A stretch of 28,001 nucleotides of DNA. It comes from an uncultured Bacilli bacterium. Lineage in GTDB: Bacteria > Bacillota_I > Bacilli_A > RF39 > UBA660. The notes under the pieces are model-generated. The model was not told the origin of the DNA. It ran no database searches and was given only the letters and a program-made list of their open reading frames with translations. Positions 4,545-22,169 of this stretch are shown here, piece by piece (the stretch's first letter is position 1; each line of letters begins with the position of its first letter). Where the stretch lies: contig CANQFH010000001.1 of assembly GCA_947598425.1 (NCBI GenBank), positions 1-28,001 of the forward strand. Direction: 5' to 3'. A program made the translations under genes and the position numbers.

Positions 4545-4573
4545 CAAAGAAAAAGAACTAATTACTAGTTCTT
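4545..4573 (-). terminator. Intrinsic terminator after spoVG
   Basis: AAGAACTA-GTAAT-TAGTTCTT followed by TTTCTTT. Confidence 0.6.
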
Positions 4574-4583
4574 ACTTATATCA

Positions 4584-4850
4584 TTAATTTTCTTCAGTTG
4601 GATTATTATATTCTTCTAATATTTTATTTTCAAACATTTCTCTAGTTTCAGAGTTTGTTGGATGAACAATATCTTCAAATCTTTCGTTATTAACCTTTCT
4701 TGAAGGCATTGCACAGAATAATCTATTTTCTCCTTCTATAATTCTAATATTGCTTACTACAAAGCAATCATCGATAGTTACAGTTGCATAACCTTTAAGT
4801 CTAGAACCTTCTCTATCTATTTTGTGAACACGTACTTTTGTAATTTCCAT
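4584..4850 (-). CDS. spoVG: Septation regulator SpoVG
   Basis: MEITKVRV, LKGYATVTIDDCFVVSNIRII, FCAMPSRK, DIVHPTN. Start set at ATG 4850 (AAGGAG RBS). Confidence 0.95.
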   Translation of the reverse strand: MEITKVRVHKIDREGSRLKGYATVTIDDCFVVSNIRIIEGENRLFCAMPSRKVNNERFEDIVHPTNSETREMFENKILEEYNNPTEEN

Positions 4851-4888
4851 ATAACCACTCCTTATCTTGAATATCACAACTTATAATA

Positions 4889-4917
4889 ATTGTAAATCAA
4901 TAATTTCTTTTTTGCAA
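4889..4917 (-). promoter_or_regulatory. sigmaA-like promoter of spoVG
   Basis: TTGCAA (4917-4912), 17 nt, TACAAT (4894-4889). Confidence 0.5.
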
Positions 4918-4926
4918 CTATTTTAT

Positions 4927-6090: not shown

Positions 6091-6095
6091 ATATC

Positions 6096-7673
6096 TCACT
6101 CCTTACTATTTTCATTATATAAATCTGGTAAATCGCTTTGTAATAATACATAAGTGTCTTTATCTTTTAACTCTCTTATTAATTTAAATGAATCCATTAT
6201 ATTATTTAATATATGTACTTTATTTAAATTATAATTATTCTCTTTTAAACCATCATATATTGGTTCTGTTTGCTTCTTTCCTATTAAAATAACTTCATCT
6301 ATTTGATATTTACTTATTAAATAACCAATATTTTTATTTTCTTCATAATACTTATTACCTAACTCGATCATTCCGGAAGTAATAATAATCTTTTTACCAT
6401 TCATTTTACTTAAAACTTCAATCGCCATCTTACTACCTAAAGGATTATTATTATAAGAGTCATCTATTAAATTAATATCATAATATAATTTTCTTTCTAA
6501 ACGATGGCTTACAGGTTTTAAGGCTTTAACACTTTTTATTAAGTCCTCTATTTTTATTCCTAATTTTCTACCTAACGCTATTCCTTCTAAAATATTATAA
6601 ATATTATAATTACCTAATAATGTTGTCGTAAATTCATAATCTTTATTTTCATCTTTAAAATGCACTTTAAAACTAGTTTTATTACCATCTAATTTAATAT
6701 CTTTAGCATAAATATCAACATCATGATTATCTATACCTATCCATACTATTTCACAATTATTCTTTATTTGATAATTAAGTTGTTTGGGATCATCACCATT
6801 TAAAATTCCAATACCATCACTAGGTAAGCTTTCAATTAATTCAAATTTAGTATTAATAATATTCTCTTCACTTTTAAATGTTTCTAAATGCGCTATTCCT
6901 ATTCTAGTTAGAATACCATATTTAGGATGTACTAAATCACATAATTCTTTAATATCTCCTTTTTTACAAGCTCCCATCTCGACTACAAAATAATCATTAA
7001 ATTTATCTAGATAATTATTGATTGTGAGTAAAATTCCATTTGGAGTATTATAATTTTCTGGAGTTTTATACACACTATAAGTAGAATTTAAAATACTATA
7101 AACAATATTTTTAGAACTTGTTTTACCATAACTACCTGTAATTCCAATAACATCCATCTTATTCATTGTAGCTAACTTATTTAAAGCTAACTTCTTATAA
7201 TGAGTATATACTAAATATTCTAAAGGTTTATTAATAATATTAATGATAATTATTATAAAATATAATAGATATAAAGTAATATTTAGTATTTGGTAACAAA
7301 TGTTATTATCAAATAAATTAAAGATAATTATGGTTAATAAGAGATAAAAAATATTAGTGGTTAAAAATAATCTTTTAACTCTACTAGTATACTTTAAAGG
7401 TATTTTATCTTGAGTATTTTTTTTATTAATAATAAATAATATAATTAGTAATAAATAAATAATACTAAATAAATATTCGATATTAGTAAAAAACATTATT
7501 ATAGTTATTAGTACTAATAAATTAACATTAATTAAAATATTCTTTAAATGTTTAAATAACCATTTTAGATATCTATTATCTAAATTATATTTATTTTGTT
7601 GAAACATATGAAGTACTTTGGTATTCATTAAATTTAAATAAATAAAATAAATGATAATATTTATATATAACAT
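6096..7673 (-). CDS. murF: UDP-N-acetylmuramoyl-tripeptide--D-Ala-D-Ala ligase with N-terminal membrane extension
   Basis: IGITGSYGKTSSK, FVVEMGA, GIAHLETF, LNGDD, LIDDSYNNNP; adjacent to ddl. The start could be 7673, 7679 or 7682. Confidence 0.88.
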   Translation of the reverse strand: MLYINIIIYFIYLNLMNTKVLHMFQQNKYNLDNRYLKWLFKHLKNILINVNLLVLITIIMFFTNIEYLFSIIYLLLIILFIINKKNTQDKIPLKYTSRVKRLFLTTNIFYLLLTIIIFNLFDNNICYQILNITLYLLYFIIIIINIINKPLEYLVYTHYKKLALNKLATMNKMDVIGITGSYGKTSSKNIVYSILNSTYSVYKTPENYNTPNGILLTINNYLDKFNDYFVVEMGACKKGDIKELCDLVHPKYGILTRIGIAHLETFKSEENIINTKFELIESLPSDGIGILNGDDPKQLNYQIKNNCEIVWIGIDNHDVDIYAKDIKLDGNKTSFKVHFKDENKDYEFTTTLLGNYNIYNILEGIALGRKLGIKIEDLIKSVKALKPVSHRLERKLYYDINLIDDSYNNNPLGSKMAIEVLSKMNGKKIIITSGMIELGNKYYEENKNIGYLISKYQIDEVILIGKKQTEPIYDGLKENNYNLNKVHILNNIMDSFKLIRELKDKDTYVLLQSDLPDLYNENSKE

Positions 7674-7683
7674 AACCATCACC

Positions 7684-8409
7684 CTATTCTAAAAATGATT
7701 TTAAAATTGCTATTGTTTGATTTAATCTTTCTAAGTAAGCATAGTGAGTACATCCTTCATATATAGAAAGACCAGCATCAGGGATTAATTTAGCAAGTTC
7801 ATAAGCATCATTAACATCAACTGCAGCATCTTCATCACCCCAAATAATAAAAGTAGGACATTTAATTTTAGTGGCATCATTTGTTAGATCAGTATTTACA
7901 TGTTTAACTAATATCTCACGCATTCTTGGAGTGGCATTACGATAATCAACAGAGCCTTTTTGAATTTTAATATAATTAGCTAATCTACCGATTAAAGGTA
8001 ATTTACTAAGTTTTTTTAATAATTTAACTTGCCATGATATTTTTTTAATTTTAACTTTATAAGGACTTGCTAATAATACTAAACGATGTACTGGATAAAT
8101 TGAAGCATATAATAATGCTAATTTACCTCCGAAAGAATGACCAACAATACTTGGATTTTTAATATTTAAAGAGTCTAATAAAGCATGAAGCATTGTTACA
8201 TAATCATTTAGGGACCAAGAAGTTTTCGGCTCTTCACTTTGGCCAAATCCTGGTAGATCAACAATAATTATACGATGGGTATCTTTTAGGGGATTGGCAA
8301 GCATTTCCATCATTTCAATATTTTGTCCCCAGCCATGCAAAAATAAAACTGCATTATTACCATTTCCATAATCTTTATAATTGATATTAATATCTTTATA
8401 ATTAAACAT
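7684..8409 (-). CDS. Alpha/beta fold hydrolase
   Basis: FLHGWG oxyanion motif, GHSFGG nucleophile elbow, WGDED (Asp), GCTHY (His). Confidence 0.92.
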   Translation of the reverse strand: MFNYKDININYKDYGNGNNAVLFLHGWGQNIEMMEMLANPLKDTHRIIIVDLPGFGQSEEPKTSWSLNDYVTMLHALLDSLNIKNPSIVGHSFGGKLALLYASIYPVHRLVLLASPYKVKIKKISWQVKLLKKLSKLPLIGRLANYIKIQKGSVDYRNATPRMREILVKHVNTDLTNDATKIKCPTFIIWGDEDAAVDVNDAYELAKLIPDAGLSIYEGCTHYAYLERLNQTIAILKSFLE

Positions 8410-8432
8410 TACATCACCTAAACTTCATCTAT

Positions 8433-8461
8433 ATTTTAGCAAATAGCTAGCTTAAAGTCTA
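8433..8461 (-). promoter_or_regulatory. sigmaA promoter of the hydrolase-murF-ddl operon
   Basis: TAGACT (8461-8456), 17 nt, TGc-TAAAAT (8438-8433). Confidence 0.55.
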
Positions 8462-8463
8462 GA

Positions 8464-8676
8464 TTATAAGAAACGTAATTTAATATCCCCCGTGATATAA
8501 TCATTATAAGAAAAACTTTTTTCAATTCCATCATTAATTATTGTAAATATATTTGGATATAATTTATATAATATTCCTTCGTAACGATTTATTTTATTAC
8601 GCATCCCATAAACTGTTACAATCACTTTTTTACCAAGATTAATAGCTATCTTATTTTTAACAATATCTATATTCAT
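8464..8676 (-). CDS. veg: Veg family protein
   Basis: GKKV..GMRNK..EGILYKLYPNIF, SFSYNDYITG; follows yabG as in B. subtilis. Confidence 0.92.
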   Translation of the reverse strand: MNIDIVKNKIAINLGKKVIVTVYGMRNKINRYEGILYKLYPNIFTIINDGIEKSFSYNDYITGDIKLRFL

Positions 8677-9432
8677 CTAGGATACCCCACATACATAAGA
8701 CCATTACCCATAATACCACCCATACCATCACTACCATACTTAGTTTTATCTAACATTTCTTTTAAATTAACTTCTTTATTTCTTTCAGTAAGGGCAATAG
8801 TAACAGCAATAATCATGAATATTTACTCTTTTCGGACTTGAAGCATAATTAGCCCCAGCTTTAATTAATTCTTCATAATTACTTTGACAAGCTCCAGCAA
8901 TAATTACTAATTTATCATGACTTTTTTCATAATTACGAGCAGCTTTAACGGCTTTAATAAAATTCTTCGTATTTTTATAATTATTATTATCTTTAATATC
9001 CCCTTTTTTCTTATAATAAGCATCATGACCCGTAATAATTAAAATATCCGGTTTATATTCTTTTAAAAGAATTCCAACTTGTTCATACATATCTTCTTCT
9101 TTAATTCTTTTACCAATAGCCAGTAATCCTACTTTTTTATAATACTTTAAACATTTATCTAAATATTCATTATCTCCATCAATATGCAATATTTTACCAG
9201 GTAAATAAAAATAATCATTATCTACTATTTCTTTAGCTCTTTCATTATTATTACTATTATTATCTTCTTCAATATATTCACTTTTAACTAAATCATTATA
9301 TGGACTATCAGCATATAATCTAACTTCAACTCCCTTTAGATAATACACACCATCTTTAATATTAATAACTTTAAATATAGTATCATTATCATAACTTTTC
9401 CTAGTTACAAAATCCCCTTTATTTATTTCCAA
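8673..9432 (-). pseudogene. yabG: Sporulation peptidase YabG, frameshifted by an apparent 14-nt deletion at 8814/8813
   Basis: VTRKSY, ITGHD, AGACQS, ASSPKRVNIH, then the frame reads DYCCYYCPY*. The YabG-like tail IIAVTIALTER...GMGGIMGNGLMYVGYPR* continues in the next frame (8813-8673) and ends in an ATGA overlap with veg. Confidence 0.88.
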
Positions 9433-9478
9433 ATGAATCACCACTTAATTTTATGCATAAATAAAATATCTATTACAT

Positions 9479-9505
9479 AAGAAAAATGCTCATAATAAGC
9501 ATTTT
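9479..9505 (-). terminator. Intrinsic terminator of the HA/AAA/vWA operon
   Basis: AAAATGCT-TATTATG-AGCATTTT then TCTT, overlapping the vWA gene stop codon. Confidence 0.6.
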
Positions 9506-10865
9506 ATCGAGATCTAACTCTGGTATATAAATTCTTTAATTCATATTTATCAATAGTAATTACTCTACCTCCTAAAGGTTTTATTTCTTCACCAAAAACT
9601 ATCCAAATAGCATCTAAAGGTTTTTGAGGTATACTAGCATAGCCATCAGTAAAAATTATTTTATTTTCTACTCTATTAGTAAAAGCCTCTACTGCAACAT
9701 CAAAGTTAGTACCACCACCACCTTGAAAAACCATATTTTCAATATCTTCTTCGCTTCTTATTTCATAAAATCCATAAAATTTAGTATCAAAGCAACCAAC
9801 TTTCATTCTCGAATAAGGTAAAATATTCTTACATTCTCTTAAAAAGCTTTTTAATAAATCACTATCAATAGAACCACTAGTATCTAAAAGAATTTCTGTT
9901 TCCGGTACCATTCGTTCTTCTAAATTAGCCATAACCACACCATCTTCGATATAGGCATTTTTATAAGACCAATCAACATCATAATTAATAGCCTCTCTTA
10001 AAAGATAACGCCAATCTAATAATGGCTTTCCTATTCCAATATCAGTTATATCTAGACTATCACCATTACTTTTAGTACCAAAATTCATTGCTTGTTCAGC
10101 TATATCATTTTTTAATTTATCCAATTCTTCTTGTTTTTCTTTTTGATTATGTTGAAAAGCTTCTTTTTCTCCTATTTTACTAATCTTTTTAGATTCTTTT
10201 TGTAATTCATCTTTTTTATTATTGTTATTATTACTTTCTTCATTATTGGCTTGTTTCTTCTTTTCTAAAGCTTTTTTCCACATACTATGTGAGTCATGAC
10301 CGGCATCTTTATTTTCTTGTTCATTACTATTCCCATTTTGTTTATTATCTTCCTTAACTTCATTATTACCATTAGAATTATTATTTTCATTTTGAGAATT
10401 TTGTTCATTGTTTTGTTTGTTTTCTTCATTATAATCTTCATCTTGGTTTTGATCATCACTATTTTGCATTAAGATTTCATATAATTTTTCAGCATCATAA
10501 TTAATAGCTTCAGGGATATTAACGGCACCAGAGACTAATTTTAAACCATCCTTTTTTAAAAATTGATTAATAACGGCATCGGTTGCAATATTCCAAACAT
10601 GTTCATCTTTATTTTCACTGCGATTGATATGATCAAAAGCAATATGACATACTTCATGTGCAAGGGTAAAGGTTTGTTCTGAGGCATCTAGTTTTTGCAT
10701 AAAGTTCGGATTATAATAAATGACTTCCCCATCAGTTTCTGCTGTTTTAATGGAAGTATCTATTTGATAAGTAGAATTAGCTAAAACCCCTCCAAAAAAA
10801 GGATATTTTACTAACATTTTTCTTTTAATTGTTTCAATATCAAAATTCATAAACACCTCATACAT
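9504..10865 (-). CDS. DUF2201-type protein: N-terminal HExxH metallopeptidase-like domain, low-complexity linker, C-terminal vWA domain
   Basis: TAETDG..YYNPNF, LAHEVCH, WNIATDAVIN; MIDAS elements LLDTSGS, GGGGTNF, IFTDGY. Confidence 0.88.
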   Translation of the reverse strand: MYEVFMNFDIETIKRKMLVKYPFFGGVLANSTYQIDTSIKTAETDGEVIYYNPNFMQKLDASEQTFTLAHEVCHIAFDHINRSENKDEHVWNIATDAVINQFLKKDGLKLVSGAVNIPEAINYDAEKLYEILMQNSDDQNQDEDYNEENKQNNEQNSQNENNNSNGNNEVKEDNKQNGNSNEQENKDAGHDSHSMWKKALEKKKQANNEESNNNNNKKDELQKESKKISKIGEKEAFQHNQKEKQEELDKLKNDIAEQAMNFGTKSNGDSLDITDIGIGKPLLDWRYLLREAINYDVDWSYKNAYIEDGVVMANLEERMVPETEILLDTSGSIDSDLLKSFLRECKNILPYSRMKVGCFDTKFYGFYEIRSEEDIENMVFQGGGGTNFDVAVEAFTNRVENKIIFTDGYASIPQKPLDAIWIVFGEEIKPLGGRVITIDKYELKNLYTRVRSR

Positions 10866-11241
10866 GCGCTACTAAAGAATATATTTCTTCATTAATTGTA
10901 TCTTTATTAATATTACTTGCTGTTAATATAATTACTACATTAGAAGGCAATTTAAATGTTGATATTTGCTTACTTTCTAATAATTCGATAAATTTTAATT
11001 GTTCTTCTTTAGATATAGTATCAATTCTATCTATTACAAGTAAACTCTTTTCAGCATTTAACTTCTTAAACCATTCTGGAGCAACATAACTATCATTATC
11101 ATAATGGCCACATAATTCACTTTTGGATATATTAGCAGGTATTACTACTGCATATGGTAATTTACTTACATCAAAGTTTGTTAATATCGGAGCTACATTA
11201 CTTATAATATAATTTTTTAATAATTCTTTTTTTTCTTTCAT
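10858..11241 (-). CDS. Degenerate (inactive) AAA+ core, paralogous to the neighbouring ATPase
   Basis: Aligns by eye to the upstream ATPase (PEWFKKL/PTWLKKL, LLVIDR/IVFFDE, KLPSNVVII/NLPNNARIV, IYSLVAHV/LFNRFAHV); no Walker A. Confidence 0.75.
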   Translation of the reverse strand: MKEKKELLKNYIISNVAPILTNFDVSKLPYAVVIPANISKSELCGHYDNDSYVAPEWFKKLNAEKSLLVIDRIDTISKEEQLKFIELLESKQISTFKLPSNVVIILTASNINKDTINEEIYSLVAHV

Positions 11242-13052
11242 AATCTTCGACCTTCAGCTATTCTTGTTGTGGCAATTATTTCTAAACGAGATTCATCATT
11301 ACGAACCCAAATGTTATCAAATAATGCAACAAGCTCCAAACCTAATTTTTTAACAAAATCTCGAACTTTGATAACATTTTCTTCATCTACTTGTGATAAA
11401 TTCATAACTGTAGCATACTTTGAGGCAATATTTAATGATTCGATATTTTGATCAGTATAATTATCATTAAGAACAGCATCTAAAGTGATTATTGGTTCTT
11501 TACAAAAAGTTACAAACTCTCTAGTTATACCTTCTCCAACCAAAGCTCTTAACATCTCCGGATTATTGGTAGCATATAACATTTTAGAAGCCATTTCCCA
11601 TTTTCGAGGATCAGCATTAGGTTTTTCACCATCATACTTACTGCGTAATGTTTCCCCTTTTCTATAGGCAATATAAGCACAGATAGCAGGATGAATATTA
11701 TTTTCACCAGCCCACTTTAACCAACTTTCGGGAGTTGTTTTAATATACACATGAGCAAAGCGATTGAATAATGGTTCTGCAAGTTTATTAGCTGCTAAAG
11801 AATCATTCATTTCATTACCAGCAGCAACTATTCGAGCATTATTAGGTAAATTCCAAATACCATTAACTTCTTTATCTAAAATTATATTAAAAGCAATACC
11901 TTGAATACTTGGTAAGGCATTAGTTAATTCATCAAAGAAAACTATATGTAATTTATCAGGTTCATTTTCACATAACATTTCTAATTTTTTTAACCATGTT
12001 GGTTTAATATCAATCATTTCTCCAGTCTCAGAATTATATACACTTTTACCATTTAAACTTTCGGGAGTTGCATTTCTTAGATAGATAGTTATGCAATTTT
12101 TATCTATTTGTTTAACACGAGCACTTTTTCCTTCTGATGATGGTCCATGTAAAAATACTGCAACTCCACTTTCAATGGCTCCTTTGATTATATCTTCTTC
12201 ACTTACTTTTTTTAAGTTAAAACCATAAGGATTATTTACTTTTTTTACTGTAACAAGTTCTTGAGTTAAATCAAATAACATATATCTATCTAAAAATTGG
12301 TATAATTCTGTTTTAGAAAAATCATCAAACCATTCTTCTGTTTGAGCAAATCTAATACCTCCAAGTAAACCTCTTCTAGATATTAAAGTATTTGTTTCAT
12401 AATCCACTAACCATCTAACTGGAGATACTTCTATCCATACCCAATCACCATCTTTATATTTAATACCATTTGATAAAGTTACAGATTGTTCATAATTTAA
12501 TCTCGCTTGAACTCTAACATATCTTTTATTATCATATAGATATTCTTTACAGGCTAATGGTTCAAAAGGCCTATCATCATAATCCGGAGTAGGATCGTTC
12601 TTATCAATGAAAAAATATCTTCCAGTTAATTGTAAATTCGAATGAACGACAGAAGAATTAAGTTGCTTTTGAATTTTACCATCGGCAGCATATTGAGGAT
12701 ATTCACCCAATTCTATTTCCTCGACTCCATTATAACCAATTATTCTTTCGCCTGGTGGCATTGCTGATATTTTTAATACTGGTCTAATAGCAGCGGTTCT
12801 AGTATTACAACTACAACCAAGTGGAACTACACACATTCTTACTACATGACCCATGGGGGTTACTGTTTTAGTATAAATCCAACCTGCATTACCTTTTAGT
12901 GGTCCTTCTTGAACAACTTTGGTAACATCAATATCACTATAAGCTCCAGTAACTAAAGCAAAGTCTGTAACTGCAGCTTTACTACCCCACTTCTTTATGG
13001 TCTCTAAAGAGTTATAATCATCTAATGAAAGGATACTTATATCTTCTATCAT
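11238..13052 (-). CDS. MoxR/dynein-related AAA+ ATPase (AAA_5-like) with ~280-aa N-terminal extension
   Basis: Walker A GPSSEGKS, Walker B IVFFDE, sensor I AAGN, R-finger NRF, DPRKWE; N-terminus carries an RPVL motif (DUF6273-like) plus GEYPQ and VSPVRWLV. Confidence 0.88.
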   Translation of the reverse strand: MIEDISILSLDDYNSLETIKKWGSKAAVTDFALVTGAYSDIDVTKVVQEGPLKGNAGWIYTKTVTPMGHVVRMCVVPLGCSCNTRTAAIRPVLKISAMPPGERIIGYNGVEEIELGEYPQYAADGKIQKQLNSSVVHSNLQLTGRYFFIDKNDPTPDYDDRPFEPLACKEYLYDNKRYVRVQARLNYEQSVTLSNGIKYKDGDWVWIEVSPVRWLVDYETNTLISRRGLLGGIRFAQTEEWFDDFSKTELYQFLDRYMLFDLTQELVTVKKVNNPYGFNLKKVSEEDIIKGAIESGVAVFLHGPSSEGKSARVKQIDKNCITIYLRNATPESLNGKSVYNSETGEMIDIKPTWLKKLEMLCENEPDKLHIVFFDELTNALPSIQGIAFNIILDKEVNGIWNLPNNARIVAAGNEMNDSLAANKLAEPLFNRFAHVYIKTTPESWLKWAGENNIHPAICAYIAYRKGETLRSKYDGEKPNADPRKWEMASKMLYATNNPEMLRALVGEGITREFVTFCKEPIITLDAVLNDNYTDQNIESLNIASKYATVMNLSQVDEENVIKVRDFVKKLGLELVALFDNIWVRNDESRLEIIATTRIAEGRRL

Positions 13053-14440
13053 TTTATACCACCTATCCTACTAGCTTCTTTTTCCATAAGATTACTAATC
13101 TTAATATTATATAATTTTTCAACATCTTTATTACTCATACTAAATATTGGATTTAATAACCCTTTTGCATCGATAATATATTGATTATTATTTATTAAAA
13201 TATTAATTTTAATTATTAACATTATTTTAGATATTCTTCTTAAGATATCTTTATTTAATTCTTTATTTATATGATATTTTAAACATATATCACTAATATC
13301 ATCTAAATGCTTTTTATTATTCCAAATGATTCCTAATTTATTTAATAAATATTCTCTATTTAAATATAATAGTCCTCTTTTATATGCTGTTCTTTGATTA
13401 GATAACCATACCCCTAAAGGTAAACCATCTTGGTCATAAGTAATTCCATCTTTAGTACAAAAAGCTTTATTAATATTTAAATTACCGTAATAATGATGAT
13501 AATTACAAGCTAAATCATAATATTTATTCCAAGTATAGTCTTGAACTTCCCAAATCATGCCAATACTATTTAATCTTTCAATATTATTTTCAGAAACTTT
13601 ATTATCGTAATTTGCCGCTCTTTGACTATGCAACCATTTACTTAAATTAGTACCATATTCACTTACTTCATAACCATTAGTAGTTATAAAATTATCAGGA
13701 ACATCTAAATTACCATAATGTTCATAGTAACTTTTAGCAAGGGCAAAATTGGCTTCCCAATCTAACTTACTGGCATCCCAGACCATACCTAATGCTTCTA
13801 ACTTAGCTATTTTATCTTGAGATAATTCATTATTTGTATATAGAGTTCTTTGTCTACTAATCCATCGACCTAACTTATAATCAGGAATACTATAAGTATT
13901 ATCAGTGATAAATTTAATAGGTATTAAGATATTATTATGTTTTTCTTGATATTCCTTTACTAAATGATAACTTTTCTCCCATAAGCTTTCTTGTTTAGGT
14001 ATATCGATACCATAAACTTGACTAGCCTCTAATAAAGACATATTGAATATAGGATGGACAATACCATCACTATTAGTAATACTTTCATTAACTCCTAATA
14101 AATAGTTGATTTTAATTTTAAATTCTGCCGCAGGCATTCTTTGTAAAACTTTTCGATTTAATTTATAATCTATACTATATGTTTCATATAACTTTTTAAC
14201 ACTATCTTTTGATTCTTTTAATATCCAAGTCATTCCAATATTATTTAATTTACTAACTCTCTCTGATTCTAATATTCCATTTAAATGATTGACTCTTTGA
14301 TCATGAATCCAACTACCTAAAGGAAAACCATTTTCATTATAAGTAATACCATCTTGGGTTTTAAAACTACTAGATATATACAAATTACCATGATAATGAT
14401 AGTATTTACTAGCTAAATTATAAGCCTCTATCCATTTCAT
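13049..14440 (-). CDS. Helicase-associated (HA) repeat protein A: 4 HA repeats and 2 copies of an unnamed cap domain
   Basis: Repeats of W..Y..A..Y....GNL....LG.W...QR....L......L..IG..W; no helicase motifs. Confidence 0.85.
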   Translation of the reverse strand: MKWIEAYNLASKYYHYHGNLYISSSFKTQDGITYNENGFPLGSWIHDQRVNHLNGILESERVSKLNNIGMTWILKESKDSVKKLYETYSIDYKLNRKVLQRMPAAEFKIKINYLLGVNESITNSDGIVHPIFNMSLLEASQVYGIDIPKQESLWEKSYHLVKEYQEKHNNILIPIKFITDNTYSIPDYKLGRWISRQRTLYTNNELSQDKIAKLEALGMVWDASKLDWEANFALAKSYYEHYGNLDVPDNFITTNGYEVSEYGTNLSKWLHSQRAANYDNKVSENNIERLNSIGMIWEVQDYTWNKYYDLACNYHHYYGNLNINKAFCTKDGITYDQDGLPLGVWLSNQRTAYKRGLLYLNREYLLNKLGIIWNNKKHLDDISDICLKYHINKELNKDILRRISKIMLIIKINILINNNQYIIDAKGLLNPIFSMSNKDVEKLYNIKISNLMEKEASRIGGIK

Positions 14441-14443
14441 ATT

Positions 14444-15568
14444 TTACCCCCTAACTATAGAATCTCTTTGATATAAATTGATACCATATTCTTCTATGAT
14501 ATCTTTATTAGACATCTTAAATATTTTATTTAATTTACCATTAACGTCTACAATATTTTCATTTACACTTTGTAAATAATCTATTTTTAACATTAATTCT
14601 TTTTCAGATATTCTTTTTAAAATAGCTTTATTTAATTCATAATCAATATGATATTTTAAACAAAGATCTTTAACAGTATTTTTATTTAATTTTATATCCC
14701 AAATCATATCAATATTATTTAATTTAGTTACTTTATCAGGACTTAATTTTTCTTTTTGATAATCACTTCTTTGCAGACAAATCCATTGTCCTAAACTTAA
14801 TCCTTCGATATCAGCATTAATACCATCTTTAGTAGTAAATCTTCTATTAACATTTAAATTACCATAAAATTCATAATATTTTGTAGCTAAGTCATAATAT
14901 TGTTCCCAAATATAATCATGAGTATTCCAAACCATTCCAATATCCTCTAACTTATCTATTCGATACTGACTTAACTTTCCTAATCTATATTCTTGTCTTT
15001 GTTCAGCTATCCAGTGTCCTAAACAAAGGTTATTACTTACATAATCAAAACTAACCACTAAATTACCATTACTTTCATAATATTGATATGCTAAATTATA
15101 ATAACTTTCCCAAGTATTATCATAACAGTTCCAGATCATTCCTATCAAATTTAATAAATATTCTCTTTCTTCATATAAAGTTTTTGTTTGATATTGATTT
15201 CTTTGAATATGAATCCAATTAGCTAAAGGTAGACCTTCATTATCATAATTAATACCATCTTTAGTTTTATATCCAGCTGGTACATCTAAATTACCATATT
15301 TAGTATAATAATTACACGCTAATGTATAATATTTATTCCAAGTATAATCAAATGAATTCCAGATCATTCCCAATTCATTTAATTTCACTTTTCGATATCT
15401 TAATAATGTATTTGCTTGATAAGCACATCTTTGAGAATTAACCCAGCTTCCTAAAGAAAAATTAGGAATACTATATGTAGCATCAGTTACAAACTTAGCT
15501 GGAACATTTACATTATGATTTTTATCTTTATATTCTTTTAATAAACTATAAGCCTCTATCCATTCCAT
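14444..15568 (-). CDS. HA repeat protein B: 4 HA repeats and C-terminal cap domain
   Basis: Same HA consensus four times; ends CLKYHIDYELN...IFKMSNKD. Confidence 0.85.
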   Translation of the reverse strand: MEWIEAYSLLKEYKDKNHNVNVPAKFVTDATYSIPNFSLGSWVNSQRCAYQANTLLRYRKVKLNELGMIWNSFDYTWNKYYTLACNYYTKYGNLDVPAGYKTKDGINYDNEGLPLANWIHIQRNQYQTKTLYEEREYLLNLIGMIWNCYDNTWESYYNLAYQYYESNGNLVVSFDYVSNNLCLGHWIAEQRQEYRLGKLSQYRIDKLEDIGMVWNTHDYIWEQYYDLATKYYEFYGNLNVNRRFTTKDGINADIEGLSLGQWICLQRSDYQKEKLSPDKVTKLNNIDMIWDIKLNKNTVKDLCLKYHIDYELNKAILKRISEKELMLKIDYLQSVNENIVDVNGKLNKIFKMSNKDIIEEYGINLYQRDSIVRG

Positions 15569-15570
15569 AT

Positions 15571-16449
15571 CTATTTTCCTTTTCTATTATAACTAAAAGC
15601 ATCCCAAATCATATTAATCTTATTTAGTTTATCTATTCTATCTTGAGATAATCTTTTCTTTTTATAACTATATCTTTGACTATTAATCCAAACCCCTAAA
15701 GTAATACCATCTTGATTATAATTTATACCATCTTTAGTTATAAAATCTCTTTTAACTCGCAAATCACCATAATAATTATAATATTTACTAGCTAAATCAT
15801 AACAAACTAACCAATTATAATCATGAGCATCCCAAATCATCCCAATAGCATTTAACTTAGTTATTTTATCTTTATTAATAACTCCTTCAAGATAACTACT
15901 TCTTTGATAATGAATCCAGGAACCTAAAAATAAACCACTTTTCGTTTTATAACTATAAGGAATATTTAAATTACCATTTAATTTATAATAATTTTGAGCT
16001 TCTAAATAGTATTTCTCCCAATTATTTTTATTCCATAAGATACCAATATCATTTAATTTGTTAATCTTATCTGCACTTAAAATTCCTTGTTTATAATCCC
16101 TTCTTTGAACAGATATCCAAGCTCCTAAGTTAACACCATTCTTAGTTTGATAACGATTAGTAATATCAAGATTACCATGACTTTTATAATATTTTTGAGC
16201 CTCTAAATAATTTTGATTCCATAAATATTCTCTGACATTCCAAATCATTTTAATTTTATTTAATTTAGTAATCTCTTTTTTTGTTAATAATTCCTTTTGA
16301 TAATTACCTCTTTGAATACTTATCCATCTACCTAATTTATAATTTGGCACACTATAAGTGTTATCTGTAATATATTTAAAAGGTATTAAACAATTTTTAT
16401 TCTTTTGATAATATTCGAAAGCTAAATTATATATCTCTTCCCATTTCAC
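15571..16449 (-). CDS. HA repeat protein C: 4 HA repeats, no cap domain
   Basis: HA consensus four times; GTG start with AGGGGG RBS. Confidence 0.85.
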   Translation of the reverse strand: MKWEEIYNLAFEYYQKNKNCLIPFKYITDNTYSVPNYKLGRWISIQRGNYQKELLTKKEITKLNKIKMIWNVREYLWNQNYLEAQKYYKSHGNLDITNRYQTKNGVNLGAWISVQRRDYKQGILSADKINKLNDIGILWNKNNWEKYYLEAQNYYKLNGNLNIPYSYKTKSGLFLGSWIHYQRSSYLEGVINKDKITKLNAIGMIWDAHDYNWLVCYDLASKYYNYYGDLRVKRDFITKDGINYNQDGITLGVWINSQRYSYKKKRLSQDRIDKLNKINMIWDAFSYNRKGK

Positions 16450-17497
16450 AATTTATCCCCCTTTGATATAAATCGATACCATATTCATTAATGATATCTT
16501 TATTAGACATTTTAAATATTTTATTTAAATGACCATGATTATCTATAATATTTTCATTAATACTTTGTAAATAATTTATTTTTAATATTAATTCTTTTAT
16601 TGCTATTCTTTTTAAAATATCTTTATTTAATTCATAATTGATATGATATTCTAAACAAAGATCTTTAACTTCTTTTTGATTTAGTCGTATATCCCAAATC
16701 ATCCCAATATTACTTAATTTAGTAATTCTATCGGTACTTAAAATACCTTTTTGATAATTATATCTTTGAGTATTAAGCCATACTCCTAAAGGTAGGCCTT
16801 CTTCATCATAAGTAACACCATCTTTAGTCTTAAATTTTCGATGAATATGTAGATTACCATAACTTTCATAATATTTAGTAGCTAAGTGATAATAAACTTC
16901 CCACATATAAGTAAGAACGTTCCAAATCATCCCAATGCTATTTAGTTTATTAATTCTTTCTGGACTTAAATTACCATAGCTATTTCTTTGATCATGAATC
17001 CAACTACCTAATTTAATACCATCTTCTTCATAATCTATCGGTACCACTAAATTATTATTCTTTTTATAATAATTACAAGCAGCTTGATACATTTGCTCCC
17101 AACTATCTTTTTGATAAAACCAAATGATTCCTAAACTATTTAATTTAGCTATCCGTTCAGGACTTAATTTACCTAACTTATAAGATTCTTTTTGATGAGC
17201 TAACCATCTATTTATAGAAGTATCTAAAACTAAATTAATATTCCCATATTCTTCATAATATTTTTTCAAAATATTATATTTTTCTTCCCAATTATTTTCT
17301 CTTTTATTCCAAATAATACCGATACTTTCTAATTTATTAATTTGTTCTTTACTTAACTTACCTAAACTATATTTAATTTTAATATTACTAAGCCATATAC
17401 CTAATTTAACACCATTTATAATATAATCTTTAGGTATATTTAAATCACCATGACATTCATAATATTCTTTAGCTAATTCATAATTATAATCCCACAT
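16427..17497 (-). CDS. HA repeat protein D: 4 HA repeats and C-terminal cap domain
   Basis: HA consensus four times; AAGGAG RBS overlapping the upstream stop. Confidence 0.85.
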   Translation of the reverse strand: MWDYNYELAKEYYECHGDLNIPKDYIINGVKLGIWLSNIKIKYSLGKLSKEQINKLESIGIIWNKRENNWEEKYNILKKYYEEYGNINLVLDTSINRWLAHQKESYKLGKLSPERIAKLNSLGIIWFYQKDSWEQMYQAACNYYKKNNNLVVPIDYEEDGIKLGSWIHDQRNSYGNLSPERINKLNSIGMIWNVLTYMWEVYYHLATKYYESYGNLHIHRKFKTKDGVTYDEEGLPLGVWLNTQRYNYQKGILSTDRITKLSNIGMIWDIRLNQKEVKDLCLEYHINYELNKDILKRIAIKELILKINYLQSINENIIDNHGHLNKIFKMSNKDIINEYGIDLYQRGINCEMGRDI

Positions 17498-17507
17498 ATA
17501 CTACTCC

Positions 17508-18392
17508 TTACTTCGATTTACGACTTTTTCTAAAGTTAACTTTATATACTTCATTAATATCTTTTAAAGACATATTAAATATGGGATGAAGTATGCCTTC
17601 AGAATTAACTATATCTGCATCAATACTTAATAAATAATCTATTTTAGCTTGAAATAATGCCGGGACTGTTCTTTTATAATTCTCTTTATTCTTTTCTAAA
17701 TCTATACCATAAGTTTTACATATATTATTCATAATATCTCTATTAACTCTAGTTTTCCAAACTATTCCAATATTATTTAACTTTTCTTCACGATCTGGAT
17801 ACAATTTATTATTATTTCTAAAATATTTTTGATCTCTTAACCATACTCCTAAAGGTAGACCTTCTTCACAATAAGTAATTCCATCTAAAGTTTTAAATTT
17901 ATTTTTTATTTTTAAATTACCATAATGATTATAATAAGTTTGAGCTAGGTTATAATATTGCTCCCAAACATAATCATAATAGTTCCAAATCATTCCTATC
18001 TTATTTAATAATTCTACACGAGAATCTATTAAAATACCTTGATTATATGTACATCTTTGGTAATGAATCCATGCTCCTAAATTAAAATCATTAACTACAT
18101 AATCATAAGGTATAGCTAAATTACCATTTAATTCATAGTATTTTTTAGCTTCTAAATAGTTTTGATTCCAATCTTCATCAATCATATTCCAAATAACATG
18201 AATCTCTTCAAGTAAAGATGCTCTTTCTGAACTTAAATTATCACTAGAATATAAATATCTTTGAAGTGCTAACCATTTTCCTAATTTAATATCATTGATT
18301 ATATAATCTTTTGGAATATTTAAATTACCATGAGTATGATAATAATCTACTGCGAGTTGATATATTTCATTCCATCTATTATTATTCAACAT
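17508..18392 (-). CDS. HA repeat protein E: 3 HA repeats and C-terminal cap domain
   Basis: HA consensus three times. Start set at ATG 18392 (GGGGG RBS) rather than 18407. Confidence 0.85.
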   Translation of the reverse strand: MLNNNRWNEIYQLAVDYYHTHGNLNIPKDYIINDIKLGKWLALQRYLYSSDNLSSERASLLEEIHVIWNMIDEDWNQNYLEAKKYYELNGNLAIPYDYVVNDFNLGAWIHYQRCTYNQGILIDSRVELLNKIGMIWNYYDYVWEQYYNLAQTYYNHYGNLKIKNKFKTLDGITYCEEGLPLGVWLRDQKYFRNNNKLYPDREEKLNNIGIVWKTRVNRDIMNNICKTYGIDLEKNKENYKRTVPALFQAKIDYLLSIDADIVNSEGILHPIFNMSLKDINEVYKVNFRKSRKSK

Positions 18393-18419
18393 AAAAATAA
18401 CCCCCAAAATATAGGGATT

Positions 18420-18448
18420 ATTCTAACATTATTATGATAGTTTGTCAA
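18420..18448 (-). promoter_or_regulatory. Near-consensus sigmaA promoter of the HA/AAA/vWA operon
   Basis: TTGACA (18448-18443), 17 nt, TGt-TAGAAT (18425-18420). Confidence 0.75.
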
Positions 18449-18477
18449 ATTTTTCTATTTAGATAATGTTTACTAAA

Positions 18478-18795
18478 TTATTTAATATTAATTTTACTAA
18501 TATCAACATCATTTAAAAGAATATCACTATTATTAAATTCAATAAAAGTATTACCATCTTCTATACTATAATCTAAATTATTTAAAGGTATTGCTAATTC
18601 TAAATAATATTGAGGTACTTCTTCAATACCACTAGCTTTAAGAGCACTATTTTTTAAAGAATTATAAAATAATAAGATATTCTTATTAGTAACTAAAACA
18701 TTTAAATTATAAGAATAATCATCAATTTCAACATAACAATTGTCCTTTTCAAATAATACTGTTTCTTCTTTTTTAATAAAATCATAATTATACAT
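18478..18795 (-). CDS. Hypothetical protein, possibly bacterial PH-like fold
   Basis: GGAGG RBS before ATG 18795; VLVTNKNILLF resembles the LTNKRI strand of bacterial PH domains (weak). Confidence 0.65.
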   Translation of the reverse strand: MYNYDFIKKEETVLFEKDNCYVEIDDYSYNLNVLVTNKNILLFYNSLKNSALKASGIEEVPQYYLELAIPLNNLDYSIEDGNTFIEFNNSDILLNDVDISKINIK

Positions 18796-18807
18796 AACCA
18801 TTCCTCC

Positions 18808-19581
18808 TTATATAATTTTACTAATCTCTTGAAATACTTCTTCATCTAGTTGTTCAGCTCGAACATTCTCATCTAATTGATATTTATTTAAAACATCTAA
18901 TATTTTATCAAAATCATAATTACTTAAATTATTTTTTAAAGTCTTTCTTTTCATTTTAAAACTATCATTAATTAATTTAAAATACACTTCTTTATTAACA
19001 TCTAATTTAGTAGCTCTTTTGGTAAATTTAATAATGGCACTTTCAACTTTAGGCATGGGATTAAAACACTTCTTACTTACTTTAAATAACTTAATAACAT
19101 TATAATAATACTTTAAATATAAGGTAATACTACTATAATTTGAAGTACCAGGTAATGCTGTAAAACGATCAGCAACTTCCTCTTGAACCATAAATACCAT
19201 TTCTTGAATATCTAAATCTAAGTTAATTAAATATTTAATAATTGGAGTTGTTATATAATATGGAAGATTACCAACTATATATAAATGATGATATTTAATA
19301 TCTTTAATATCTTCTTTAATATTACTTTTTAAAATATCTTGATAAATAATTTTAGTACGATTATTTTCTAAATTATTTAAATAAGGCTTTAAATCAGTAT
19401 CGATTTCATAACATATCATTTGACAATTTTTTTGTTGCAAATACTTAGTTAAGGCTCCCATACCGGGACCTATTTCTATTAATAAATCATCTTCTTCTGG
19501 ATTAATATTATCACTTATCTTATTGATAATATTTTGATCGATTAAAAAATTTTGACCTAAAGTTTTTTTAGCTTTCACCAT
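18808..19581 (-). CDS. rsmA: 16S rRNA m6,2A1518/1519 dimethyltransferase
   Basis: KKTLGQNFL, EIGPGMGALT, VGNLPYYITTPI, F.PMPKVESA, RKTL.NNL, RAEQL. Start probably ATG 19581. Confidence 0.97.
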   Translation of the reverse strand: MVKAKKTLGQNFLIDQNIINKISDNINPEEDDLLIEIGPGMGALTKYLQQKNCQMICYEIDTDLKPYLNNLENNRTKIIYQDILKSNIKEDIKDIKYHHLYIVGNLPYYITTPIIKYLINLDLDIQEMVFMVQEEVADRFTALPGTSNYSSITLYLKYYYNVIKLFKVSKKCFNPMPKVESAIIKFTKRATKLDVNKEVYFKLINDSFKMKRKTLKNNLSNYDFDKILDVLNKYQLDENVRAEQLDEEVFQEISKII

Positions 19582-20225: not shown

Positions 20226-20648
20226 TTATATAATATATAGATTAAATTTTTCATTATAAGCAAGCCCTTCTTTCTCATAAGAGTATCTAAATATTTGATA
20301 AGCATTTCTTAATTCTTTTAAATTTAATTCAAAATCAATATTACGATCTTCAATAGAATAATACATCTTCTTTATTTCTTCTTGATCTTTATTATTTATT
20401 AAATGATACAATTTATAAAGATTATGGATACGACGACAAGTTTGTAAATTATTATACGCTAGACTTTTTAAAAACAATTCAATAGCAAAAATCATAATAC
20501 TATTTAATTCAATAGAATGAATTAGATTTGCTCTTAAAGAGATATTTATAATATTAACATAATTACATGCTGATTTATAAACACTAAAGGCATAGTCATG
20601 ATAATCTTCTTCATTTTTATCTTTATTTTTATCTAAATCTAAATACAT
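20226..20648 (-). CDS. HEPN-like domain protein
   Basis: FAIELFLKS, IHNLYKLY, FRYSYE match the helical HEPN pattern; AAGGAG RBS. Confidence 0.6.
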   Translation of the reverse strand: MYLDLDKNKDKNEEDYHDYAFSVYKSACNYVNIINISLRANLIHSIELNSIMIFAIELFLKSLAYNNLQTCRRIHNLYKLYHLINNKDQEEIKKMYYSIEDRNIDFELNLKELRNAYQIFRYSYEKEGLAYNEKFNLYII

Positions 20649-20762
20649 AATACTACTCCTTTATTTATATAATACTAAAATATTACTAATAATTAAAGAA
20701 TTTTAACTTTTTAATATAAGTATAAATGTCTTGTTATTTAACAAAATAATAATGTGATAAAT

Positions 20763-22169
20763 ATGGCAAATAATTTAAAAAAATATAATAAAAAAAGAAA
20801 CTTTAATAAAACTAAAGAACCAATTGGTAAAAAGAAAAAATCTTCACAAAAATTAAGATTTGTAGTGCAACATCATTTAGCAAGAAAAGATCATTATGAT
20901 TTACGATTAGAATGGAATGGAACAATGAAAAGTTGGGCAATACCTAAAGGGCCTTCATATAATCCTAAAGATAAAAGACTTGCCATCATGGTTGAAGATC
21001 ATCCCATTAGTTATCGTAATTTTGAAGGTGTAATACCAAAGGGTGAATATGGAGCAGGTACCGTTATGGTTTGGGATGAAGGTTATTGGGACGCTATTAC
21101 TAAAATAAATAAGTCATTTAACACGACCATGTTTAAATTTATTTTAAAAGGTAAGAGATTAAAAGGGGCTTGGACATTAATTAATTTTAAAGATGATAAT
21201 TGGTTACTTATAAAAGAAAAAGATGAATATTATGAATATCAAGATATTAAAAAATTAAATAAAAGTATTAAAACCAATAGAACTTTTACAGAAATAAAAA
21301 ATAATGTTACTAATACTAAGACATCAATTAAAAATAATATTATAGATAATATCACCATAACTAATCCTGATAAGGTAATATTTGATAAGCCTTTAATTAC
21401 TAAATTAGATTTAGCAATATATTATCATAAAGTAGGTAAAAGAATGTTACCTTTTATAAATAAGAGAATTATAAGTACGATAAGATGTCCTGAAGGAATC
21501 AAAAAAGATAAATTTTTTCAAAAACATTTAGATAATAACAATAAGGGTATTGGAAAGATAATATTAGAGAATGATAATAATAATAAAGAAGACTATTATT
21601 ATATAAAAGATATAAGTGGTCTTATTAGTGAAGTTCAAAGAAATAGTTTTGAGTTTCACACTTGGGGCAGTTTAGTTAATAAGTTAGAACATCCAGATAT
21701 TATGGTATTTGATTTAGATCCAGATGAAAATTTAAGTATTGCTAAAATACGTGAGGGAGTTAAAGATTTAAAAAGTATATTAGATGAATTACAATTAAAA
21801 AGTTATTTAAAAACTAGTGGTGGTAAAGGTTATCATGTAGTTGTACCAATTAAAGAAAAAATGACTTGGAAAAAGTTTAGAGAAACCGCTAAAAACATTG
21901 CTAAAATAATGGAAATAAAATGGCCTGATAAATATACTAGTAATATAAGAAAAAATAAAAGAAAGGGTAAAATATTCATTGATTGGGTGAGAAATACCAG
22001 ATCATCTACTTCAGTTAGTCCTTATTCAATTAGATTAAGAAATAATTGTCCGGTATCTATGCCTATTGCATGGAGAGAATTAGATAAGATTAAACCCAAT
22101 GAGATTGGGATTAAAGATGCTATTAAAAGATTAAATAGAAAAGATCCTTGGAGTGATTTCTTTGATTAA
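20763..22169 (+). CDS. ligD: LigD-family 3'-phosphoesterase plus primase-polymerase fusion, no ligase domain
   Basis: PE: KRNF.KT.EP, HHLARKDHYDLRLE, SWAIPKGP, EDHP, GEYGAG. POL: TNPDK, FDLDP, KTSGGKGYH, FIDW.RN, VSPYS. No KxDG ligase motif. Confidence 0.88.
   Translation: MANNLKKYNKKRNFNKTKEPIGKKKKSSQKLRFVVQHHLARKDHYDLRLEWNGTMKSWAIPKGPSYNPKDKRLAIMVEDHPISYRNFEGVIPKGEYGAGTVMVWDEGYWDAITKINKSFNTTMFKFILKGKRLKGAWTLINFKDDNWLLIKEKDEYYEYQDIKKLNKSIKTNRTFTEIKNNVTNTKTSIKNNIIDNITITNPDKVIFDKPLITKLDLAIYYHKVGKRMLPFINKRIISTIRCPEGIKKDKFFQKHLDNNNKGIGKIILENDNNNKEDYYYIKDISGLISEVQRNSFEFHTWGSLVNKLEHPDIMVFDLDPDENLSIAKIREGVKDLKSILDELQLKSYLKTSGGKGYHVVVPIKEKMTWKKFRETAKNIAKIMEIKWPDKYTSNIRKNKRKGKIFIDWVRNTRSSTSVSPYSIRLRNNCPVSMPIAWRELDKIKPNEIGIKDAIKRLNRKDPWSDFFD

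What the first reader, a model, noticed from the sequence alone, without database searches (positions are those of the whole stretch)
9479..18448. Candidate new conflict/defence operon: HA-repeat array, MoxR AAA+, dead AAA and peptidase-vWA
Seen: eight co-oriented genes under one near-consensus promoter (18448-18420) and one terminator (9505-9479). Every junction is tight (gaps of 10, 2 and 3 nt; overlaps of 23, 4, 4 and 8 nt), with SD sequences encoded in upstream codons. Known: MoxR AAA+ and vWA proteins act as pairs, AAA plus DUF2201 peptidase-vWA is a recurrent gene pair, MoxR-vWA cores occur in NTP-dependent biological conflict systems, and HA domains are predicted nucleic-acid binders normally appended to SF2 helicases. 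Inference: the variable HA array is a sensor or specificity module, and the AAA/vWA-peptidase is the switch/effector. I do not know of a described system with this combination.
Basis: partly seen in the sequence, partly recalled or inferred. Interest (0 to 1): 0.85.

Follow-up and report, generated by a model that had tools for sequence, protein, structure and literature searches.

The report
HA gene array abutting sensor-ATPase cassette
The eight genes are real and tightly packed, but they are most likely two unrelated accessory modules that landed side by side. One is a family of DNA-binding-repeat proteins. The other is a widespread ATPase/protease cassette that carries its own variable sensor, so the HA repeats are probably not its sensor.

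Summary
Observation confirmed. Eight co-oriented minus-strand genes (9504-18392) have the stated gaps and overlaps, the best promoter match of the region (18448-18420), and a weak hairpin plus U-tract at 9505-9479.

Interpretation only partly supported. The last three genes are a conserved cassette: a head-plus-MoxR-like AAA+ ATPase, a dead lid-less AAA core, and a DUF2201 zincin-vWA protein. I found the cassette in 77 non-redundant loci of gut Bacillota. HA genes lay near it in only one of these, downstream and with their own promoter.

The cassette has its own specificity module. This is the ATPase's N-terminal DUF6273-like head, which diversity-generating retroelements hypermutate in at least 10 distinct relatives (TR/VR pairs differing almost only at TR adenines). 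This genome shows no reverse transcriptase and no template repeat.

HA-repeat-plus-cap genes are an independent family. A second six-gene array sits next to rpoB on another contig. HA and the ATPase share no contig in the 24 same-genus genomes searched. The recurrent neighbour of HA genes is a ~100-aa protein, which is absent here.

The block sits in the ksgA-yabG gap, a variable insertion site in the genus. PADLOC gives no usable hit, and no RNA data exist. This scan has already found the cassette on many other genomes. Only the HA juxtaposition is specific to this window.

The parts
18420..18448 (-). Sigma-A-type promoter candidate (TTGACA, 17 nt, extended -10 TG-n-TAGAAT) upstream of HA1
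   Evidence: Best consensus match in 8400-19000 (11 of 12, TG present). Sequence read. Function not tested.
17508..18392 (-). HA1: 294-aa cytoplasmic protein with 3 HA repeats and a C-terminal ~75-aa 'cap'
   Evidence: PF03457 at E 8.6e-47. ATG at 18392 with GGGGG SD. No signal peptide is visible. Cap alignment is A5.
16427..17497 (-). HA2: 356 aa, 4 HA repeats plus cap
   Evidence: PF03457 at E 8.3e-69; 44-48% identical to HA1, HA3 and HA4.
15571..16449 (-). HA3: 292 aa, 4 HA repeats, no cap, GTG start
   Evidence: PF03457 at E 1.4e-65; AGGGGG SD.
14444..15568 (-). HA4: 374 aa, 4 HA repeats plus cap
   Evidence: PF03457 at E 3.7e-61.
13049..14440 (-). HA5: 463 aa, 4 HA repeats with one internal and one C-terminal cap; its stop overlaps the ATPase start (ATGA)
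   Evidence: PF03457 at E 5.6e-59. Best non-self homologue in 5.8 billion proteins is 34-37% identical. A public contig (12857-13161) bridges the junction.
12228..13052 (-). N-terminal 'head' of the ATPase (residues 1-275): a fast-evolving DUF6273-like beta-rich domain, the likely ligand-binding specificity module
   Evidence: Model pLDDT 87.8, pTM 0.89. No PDB match: Foldseek best E 0.08, VIA-align best Z 3.9. AFDB hits are unnamed homologues and DUF6273 proteins. 7 of 32 homologous heads hit Pfam DUF6273, best 2.4e-7. Column entropy is 1.4-2.2 bits against 0.4-0.8 in the AAA core.
12771..12866 (-). Stretch equivalent to the DGR variable region of relatives (residues 63-94, ending IRPVLK). 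No template repeat was found for it in this genome
   Evidence: Mapped from the L005 VR through alignment A1. TR/VR pairs in relatives. No TR-like repeat and no RVT_1 in the 87%-complete genome.
11238..12203 (-). MoxR-like AAA+ module of the 604-aa protein (residues ~284-604): Walker A GPSSEGKS, Walker B FFDE, plus lid
   Evidence: Sequence. phrog_1297 at 1e-49. Fold matches to NorQ, CbbQ, RavA, CHU_0153, MCM and BchI at Z 8.0-8.4. Pfam AAA_5 is below cut-off (14.5 against 22 bits).
10858..11241 (-). 127-aa degenerate AAA core without Walker A, the Walker B glutamate or a lid ('dead AAA')
   Evidence: hhalign of family A3 against A1: probability 92%, E 6.3e-7, aligning residues 7-130 to ATPase residues 287-434. 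BLASTP E 0.009. Present in 56 of 77 cassette loci.
9504..10865 (-). 453-aa zincin-like metallopeptidase (HEVCH) joined by a low-complexity linker to a vWA-like domain (MIDAS DTSGS)
   Evidence: PF13203 DUF2201_N at 1.6e-33 and PF09967 DUF2201 at 2.1e-11. phrog_1314 at 6.9e-65. Motifs read.
9479..9505 (-). Weak AT-rich hairpin followed by a U-tract; likely terminator
   Evidence: Folds at -8.7 kcal/mol, z = -2.0. Sequence. Not found by the consensus scan.

Best explanation
The block is a lineage-specific juxtaposition of two independent accessory modules in the variable ksgA-yabG gap. In this genome they are probably read as one transcript.

Module 1 (13049-18392) is a tandem array of five paralogous cytoplasmic proteins made of HA repeats (DNA-binding three-helix units), most of them ending in a ~75-aa cap. 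It belongs to an 11-gene family in this 0.93-Mb genome.

Module 2 (9504-13052) is a widespread three-gene cassette of gut Bacillota. The ATPase's own N-terminal DUF6273-like head recognises a ligand. Its MoxR-like AAA+ ring, probably together with the dead AAA paralogue, converts binding into ATP-driven remodelling. The vWA domain of the third protein docks on the ATPase, as in NorQ/NorD-type pairs, and brings a zincin peptidase that cleaves a target or activates itself.

Shown here: gene order, domains, cassette conservation, DGR targeting of the head in relatives, and lack of HA linkage elsewhere. Inferred: ligand binding by the head, the MoxR-vWA contact, proteolysis, and any role in conflict with mobile elements. 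The copy in this window has no DGR and would carry a fixed specificity.
For: The AAA/small/DUF2201 trio is present in 56 of 77 non-redundant loci and the AAA/DUF2201 pair in 16 more. The remaining loci are cut by contig ends. More than 2,600 homologues of the ATPase exist at about 57% identity. The ATPase gene is tandemly duplicated in 12 loci.

An RT homologue lies within 10 kb in 18 of 79 loci. TR/VR pairs whose mismatches sit almost only at TR adenines (12/12, 10/10, 12/12, 10/10, 14/14, 11/12 and so on) fall inside the head in L002-L005, L007, L008, L012, L022, L023 (four targets), L033, L043 and L045.

Among those 77 loci, an HA gene appears only in L026, behind a terminator-like hairpin and about 500 nt of AT-rich spacer. 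The own genome has a second HA array at C3:8095-14795 beside a methyltransferase gene and rpoB, with no cassette. In 24 same-genus genomes HA occurs in 7 and the ATPase in 6, never on one contig. HA-only homologues elsewhere have no AAA or DUF2201 neighbour, but they do have a conserved ~100-aa gene just downstream.

The ksgA-yabG distance ranges from 45 nt to 9.4 kb in the genus, with unrelated cargo in other genomes. The C-terminal half of the ATPase model is an AAA+ fold whose nearest matches include MoxR-type proteins (NorQ, CbbQ, RavA).
Against: The HA5 stop overlaps the ATPase start (ATGA). No intergenic space, convincing internal promoter or terminator separates the modules, so in this genome they are likely co-expressed and could have become functionally coupled. 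MoxR-vWA pairs usually serve a client encoded nearby, and that client could here be the HA proteins. One further genome (L026) has an HA gene next to the cassette. Many comparison loci are short MAG contigs, and repeat arrays such as HA assemble poorly, so linkage could be under-counted. No biochemical or transcript data exist for any component.
Confidence: 0.7

Rival explanations
1. One reading: one integrated eight-gene conflict or defence system. The variable HA array senses nucleic acid and provides specificity, and the AAA/vWA-peptidase acts as switch and effector.
For: Single near-consensus promoter, tight or overlapping junctions, and one terminator. HA domains bind DNA and are fused to nucleases and TniQ target selectors in other systems (papers cited). 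The block is accessory and sits in a variable site. PADLOC does not catalogue it.
Against: The combination does not recur: 1 of 77 cassette loci, none of the 24 same-genus genomes searched, and 0 of 5 HA-only loci. The cassette already has a dedicated variable head. A second HA array in the same genome has no cassette. The window's array lacks the ~100-aa partner that accompanies HA genes elsewhere.
Confidence: 0.1
2. Lineage-specific client relationship. After the chance juxtaposition, the MoxR-like ATPase and vWA-peptidase came to remodel, load or process the HA-repeat proteins, as NorQD, CbbQO and RavA-ViaA each serve a dedicated client.
For: Translational-coupling-type overlap between HA5 and the ATPase. 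MoxR-vWA pairs characteristically act on neighbouring clients (established knowledge; the NorQ/NorD papers listed). The head here has a fixed sequence with no DGR.
Against: There is no direct evidence of any kind. The ATPase is only 57-63% identical to HA-less relatives yet keeps all family-invariant residues, with nothing HA-specific visible. The second HA array and the HA genes of relatives do without the cassette.
Confidence: 0.12
3. Assembly artefact: the MAG contig wrongly joins an HA array and the cassette.
For: HA arrays are repetitive. The genome is a fragmented MAG of 105 contigs. The organism is at only about 3x depth in the public runs.
Against: Error-free short contigs span 12857-13161 (HA5/ATPase), 10993-11260 (ATPase/small), 9237-9582 (DUF2201/yabG) and 18102-18496 (promoter/HA1). 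The junction is an in-phase ATGA overlap with an SD sequence.
Confidence: 0.03

Closest known systems
DGR-associated vWA-MoxR-VMAP 'ternary' conflict systems (Kaur, Burroughs, Iyer & Aravind 2020, PMC7159879; Doré et al. 2024, PMC10907252)
   Same: Both have a MoxR-like AAA+ ATPase with a vWA partner, a peptidase in the system, and a ligand-binding domain hypermutated by a DGR (in relatives of this window). Both are cytoplasmic, predicted to be recognition systems, and untested.
   Different: In the ternary systems the variable CLec/FGS domain is fused to the vWA protein. Here the variable head is fused to the N-terminus of the ATPase and is DUF6273-like, with no PDB match. No VMAP protein is present. 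The peptidase is a DUF2201_N zincin on the vWA protein, not trypsin or caspase. There is an extra dead AAA subunit. The hosts are small-genome unicellular gut Bacillota, not multicellular cyanobacteria, actinobacteria or Chromatiales. This window's copy has no DGR.
ATPase plus DUF2201_N/DUF2201 gene pair of N4-like (about 75-kb) and PA5oct-like jumbo phages (phrog_1297 and phrog_1314)
   Same: The AAA module (phrog_1297, 1e-49) and the zincin-vWA protein (phrog_1314, 6.9e-65) are homologous, and the two genes lie close together in the same phage genome, for example Acinetobacter phage At2.
   Different: The phage ATPases match only residues ~257-596, so they lack the N-terminal head. No dead AAA gene was noted. 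Their function is equally unknown; many records annotate the vWA-zincin gene as 'HNH endonuclease'.
Characterised MoxR-vWA chaperone pairs (NorQ/NorD, CbbQ/CbbO, RavA/ViaA)
   Same: AAA+ fold of the MoxR type (Z 8.3-8.4 to NorQ, CbbQ and RavA; Foldseek probability 1.0 to the NorQD complex) with an adjacent vWA protein that has an intact MIDAS motif.
   Different: Sequence similarity is below the Pfam AAA_5 cut-off. There is an extra 280-aa head, a peptidase on the vWA partner, and no metalloenzyme client nearby.
HA (helicase-associated, PF03457) domains appended to SF2 helicases, PLD/HxK nucleases and TniQ
   Same: The repeat unit is the same, with strong Pfam matches (up to 69 bits per repeat). 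The domain binds DNA according to the NMR study of BVU_0683 (Mills et al. 2013, cited).
   Different: Here there is no helicase, nuclease or other enzymatic domain: 3-4 repeats per protein (6 in one protein of the second array), usually followed by an unnamed ~75-aa cap. The genes are amplified into tandem arrays (11 genes and 40 repeats in a genome of about 1 Mb).

Membership tests
MoxR-type AAA+ ATPase (Pfam AAA_5, PF07728) | Score above the curated Pfam cut-off | tested here: not met
   AAA_5 scored 14.5 bits against a cut-off of 22 (E 0.037); AAA scored 13.7 against 21.2.
MoxR-type AAA+ ATPase (Pfam AAA_5, PF07728) | Intact Walker A, Walker B, sensor-1 Asn and Arg finger | tested here: met
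   GPSSEGKS, FFDE, AAGN and NRF are all in family-invariant columns.
MoxR-type AAA+ ATPase (Pfam AAA_5, PF07728) | AAA+ fold closest to MoxR-clade structures | tested here: inconclusive
   NorQ, CbbQ, RavA and CHU_0153 match at Z 8.0-8.4. However, ClpB (9.6), MuB, MCM and NtrC-type proteins score alike, so the clade is not resolved.
MoxR-type AAA+ ATPase (Pfam AAA_5, PF07728) | Operonic vWA-domain partner | tested here: met
   The DUF2201 vWA protein lies two genes downstream here and is adjacent in 72 of 77 loci.
DUF2201_N / DUF2201 metallopeptidase-vWA proteins | Both Pfam domains above cut-off, HExxH present, MIDAS DxSxS present | tested here: met
   116.9 bits (cut-off 23.2) and 44.5 bits (cut-off 26.4). 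HEVCH and DTSGS were read.
VMAP ternary conflict system (Kaur et al. 2020) | [quoted passage not shown] | tested here: not met
   Pfam found no VMAP-type or other family in the 127-aa protein, and only HA domains in the five HA proteins. The third gene is a dead AAA core.
VMAP ternary conflict system (Kaur et al. 2020) | Effector or variable domain fused to the vWA protein | tested here: not met
   The variable head is on the ATPase. The vWA protein carries a zincin domain.
DGR target gene | Cognate TR with adenine-specific differences and a DGR reverse transcriptase | tested here: not met
   For this window there is no TR-like repeat and no RVT_1 in the genome, which is 87% complete. The feature is met in at least 10 distinct relatives.
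HA-domain proteins (PF03457) | Repeats above the Pfam cut-off | tested here: met
   19 repeats in five proteins, E 1e-47 to 1e-69 per protein. The genome holds 40 repeats in all.
HA-domain proteins (PF03457) | Attachment to an SF2 helicase, which gives the family its name | tested here: not met
   The window's HA proteins have no helicase domain. Helicase-fused homologues do exist elsewhere.
Catalogued anti-phage defence systems (PADLOC-DB v2) | Any component matching a defence-system model | tested here: not met
   The only hit was Avs1b at E 0.0057 and 12 bits to the 127-aa protein, which is at noise level.
Single operon (co-transcription of all eight genes) | One transcript spanning 18.4 kb to 9.5 kb | not testable with these tools
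   Only DNA runs hold the sequence. The support is sequence-level only: overlaps, SD sites, one strong promoter match and one hairpin.

The most novel reading that the evidence does not exclude
In this lineage the fixed-specificity sensor-ATPase/peptidase cassette has been wired to an expanding family of helicase-less HA-repeat DNA binders. The result would be a DNA-recognising, ATP-gated proteolytic conflict system of a kind not described anywhere.
Probability: 0.08. Interest if true: 0.75.

Novelty: new variant of a known kind. Interest (0 to 1): 0.35.

Why it matters
The proposed eight-gene 'HA + MoxR + vWA' system should not be taken forward as a recurrent defence system, because the linkage is specific to one genome.

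The three-gene cassette remains of interest. Its ATPase carries a hypervariable head with no solved structural relative. It is abundant in gut Bacillota, is a DGR target in relatives, and I could not find it described in print. However, this scan has met it many times, and this copy lacks the retroelement.

A smaller new lead concerns helicase-less HA-repeat proteins. They form amplified tandem arrays in a genome of about 1 Mb and have their own conserved ~100-aa partner. This gives a starting point for working out what free-standing HA repeats do.

Tried and rejected
- **Head as a C-type lectin fold.** This was the expected fold for a DGR target. No PDB match appeared by Foldseek or by exhaustive VIA-align. 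Only DUF6273-type predicted models match, so I do not call it CLec.
- **Sequence search of solved structures.** The ATPase and the vWA-peptidase gave nothing usable; the best hit was MJ1213 minigluzincin at E 0.07.
- **NCBIfam.** No families matched any of the eight proteins submitted: five from the operon (the trio, HA1 and HA5) and three flanking ORFs.
- **PHROGs for HA proteins.** No match.
- **Homology between the HA 'cap' and the ~100-aa HA-partner.** Rejected: hhalign probability 0.5%. Pfam finds nothing for either.
- **orf107 (18478-18801) as an HA partner.** Rejected. It is unrelated to the partner family, and it occurs in the ksgA-yabG gap of HA-less relatives.
- **Defence-island context.** Other cargo at the ksgA-yabG site is miscellaneous (signal-peptidase-like/DUF5305 genes, a P-type ATPase, a CBM protein) and not defence-like.
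- **Transcript evidence.** No RNA runs hold the sequence.
- **Complex prediction.** Not used. Neighbourhood alone is a weak prior, and a negative result would not be evidence.
Full report
**Observation.** The window is a whole 28-kb contig of a 0.93-Mb, 87%-complete, ~25% GC genome assembled from rabbit-gut metagenomes. Eight minus-strand ORFs run from 18392 to 9504.
- The promoter match at 18448-18420 is the best in the region. Promoter-like hexamers in general are at chance frequency in this AT-rich DNA.
- The 3' hairpin at 9505-9479 is weak but real (-8.7 kcal/mol, z = -2) and is followed by a U-tract.
- SD-like runs precede nearly every start.
- Short contigs from public DNA runs bridge the key junctions without mismatches, so the arrangement is not a scaffolding artefact. 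No RNA data exist.

**Gene content.**
- Five proteins consist of HA repeats only, 19 repeats in all. They have no signal peptide and no enzymatic domain, and four of them end in an unnamed ~75-aa cap.
- The 604-aa protein fails Pfam's AAA_5 cut-off. It nevertheless has all the AAA+ motifs, matches a phage ATPase family at 1e-49, and its residues 283-570 fold as an AAA+ module. The nearest structures include NorQ, CbbQ and RavA, but also ClpB, MuB, MCM and NtrC-type proteins.
- The 127-aa protein is a truncated, motif-less copy of that AAA core (hhalign probability 92%, E 6e-7).
- The last protein has DUF2201_N (HEVCH) and a DUF2201 vWA domain with an intact MIDAS motif.
- PADLOC and NCBIfam recognise nothing usable.

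**What recurs and what does not.** The ATPase has more than 2,600 full-length homologues, almost all unnamed.
- In 77 non-redundant genomic loci, the ATPase/dead-AAA/DUF2201 trio (56 loci) or the ATPase/DUF2201 pair (16 loci) is conserved. The ATPase gene is tandemly duplicated in 12 loci.
- HA genes are absent from 820 kb of flanking DNA, apart from one contig-end fragment in L026. There the HA gene lies downstream, behind a terminator-like hairpin and its own AT-rich upstream region. From the HA-locus density in the genus, roughly 0.25 chance adjacencies were expected. This is my rough estimate.
- In 24 same-genus genomes, HA genes (7 genomes) and ATPase homologues (6 genomes) never share a contig.
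- The window's own genome has a second, six-gene HA array next to a methyltransferase gene and rpoB, with no cassette and only one ATPase gene in the whole genome.
- HA-only homologues from other metagenomes have no AAA or DUF2201 neighbour.
- Their recurrent neighbour is a conserved ~100-aa protein encoded immediately downstream. It is also present inside the second array of this genome but absent from the window.

**The cassette's own sensor.** In relatives, a reverse-transcriptase gene and a ~193-aa accessory gene sit directly upstream of the ATPase.
- A 78-103-nt repeat upstream of the RT gene (1-9 kb upstream of each target copy) matches a stretch inside the ATPase's N-terminal domain. 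The differences fall almost exclusively at adenines of the upstream copy, which is the signature of DGR mutagenic retrohoming. I saw this in at least 10 distinct loci, one of them with four tandem targets.
- The equivalent stretch here is residues 63-94 (12866-12771).
- The head (residues 1-275) models confidently (pLDDT 87.8, pTM 0.89) but has no match among solved structures. It is distantly DUF6273-like, and it evolves much faster than the AAA core.
- This genome shows no RT and no template repeat, so its head is a fixed variant.

**Location.** The block lies between ksgA and yabG. In the genus these two genes are 45-101 nt apart in ten cases and up to 8.8 kb apart in others, with unrelated cargo in between. 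This is a variable insertion site, not a defence island.

**Reading.** The most economical account is two unrelated accessory modules placed side by side and now probably co-transcribed.
- The cassette plausibly works as a recognise-and-remodel/cleave device: head, then AAA+ ring with a dead subunit, then vWA-tethered zincin. This is thematically close to the DGR-linked MoxR-vWA ternary systems predicted by Kaur et al. 2020 and Doré et al. 2024.
- Its architecture is different, however, and it fails their defining VMAP feature.
- A homologous ATPase/vWA-zincin pair occurs in N4-like and PA5oct-like phages. A defence role is therefore not the only possibility.

**Earlier work in this scan.** The scan has reported this cassette and its DGR link on about 48 other genomes. 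One later check there put the defence reading at low odds; I did not repeat that test. I found the DGR link independently before consulting those notes.

**Verdict.** As a combined system the HA-plus-cassette is not a recurrent entity. The cassette itself is a new variant of a known kind, and this copy is an unremarkable, DGR-less member.

Noticed in passing
G000 contig C3:8095-14795 (locus L091); partner gene at L091:13169-13474: There is a second array of six HA-repeat-plus-cap genes next to a small methyltransferase gene and rpoB. HA-only genes in five other loci (L112, L116, G001, G008, G020) are each followed by a conserved ~100-aa protein with no Pfam family. That protein is the recurrent HA partner.
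   Followed up: partly
window 9445-18807 (ksgA-yabG interval): Across about 25 same-genus genomes the ksgA-yabG distance ranges from 45 nt to 9.4 kb, with different cargo in each. G021 holds 8.8 kb of signal-peptidase-like/DUF5305 genes and G024 a P-type ATPase. This is an insertion hotspot inside an otherwise conserved origin-proximal gene block.
   Followed up: partly
window 8813: One public-run contig (X1) carries a 14-nt insertion (CGCGGGATCTAAAG) behind position 8813 inside yabG.
   Followed up: no
window 22219-22500: The 3' end of the 530-aa gene has at least nine paralogous copies on other contigs at 70-77% identity over about 280 nt (C60, C23, C14, C46, C87, C21, C57, C83, C77). No reverse transcriptase is detectable in the genome.
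   Followed up: no
L103 (G019:C28) 2708-11521: Six tandem genes of ~475-495 aa each carry a region similar to part of the ATPase head (residues ~85-290) without an AAA module. The head domain therefore also exists as a free-standing, amplified family.
   Followed up: no
L023 2398-11860 and L020: Four tandem head-ATPase paralogues match a single template repeat (L023). Two to three cassette copies occur in a row in L020.
   Followed up: partly
window 1-28001 and G000 as a whole: A genome of about 1 Mb retains sporulation genes (spoIVA, spoVT, spoVG, yabP, yabG, divIC). It devotes about 1.3% of its DNA to HA-repeat genes.
   Followed up: no
window 20226-22169: A HEPN-domain ORF (20226-20648) and a LigD primase-polymerase/phosphoesterase gene (20754-22169, plus strand) lie just beyond rnmV/ksgA. 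They are not linked to the operon.
   Followed up: no
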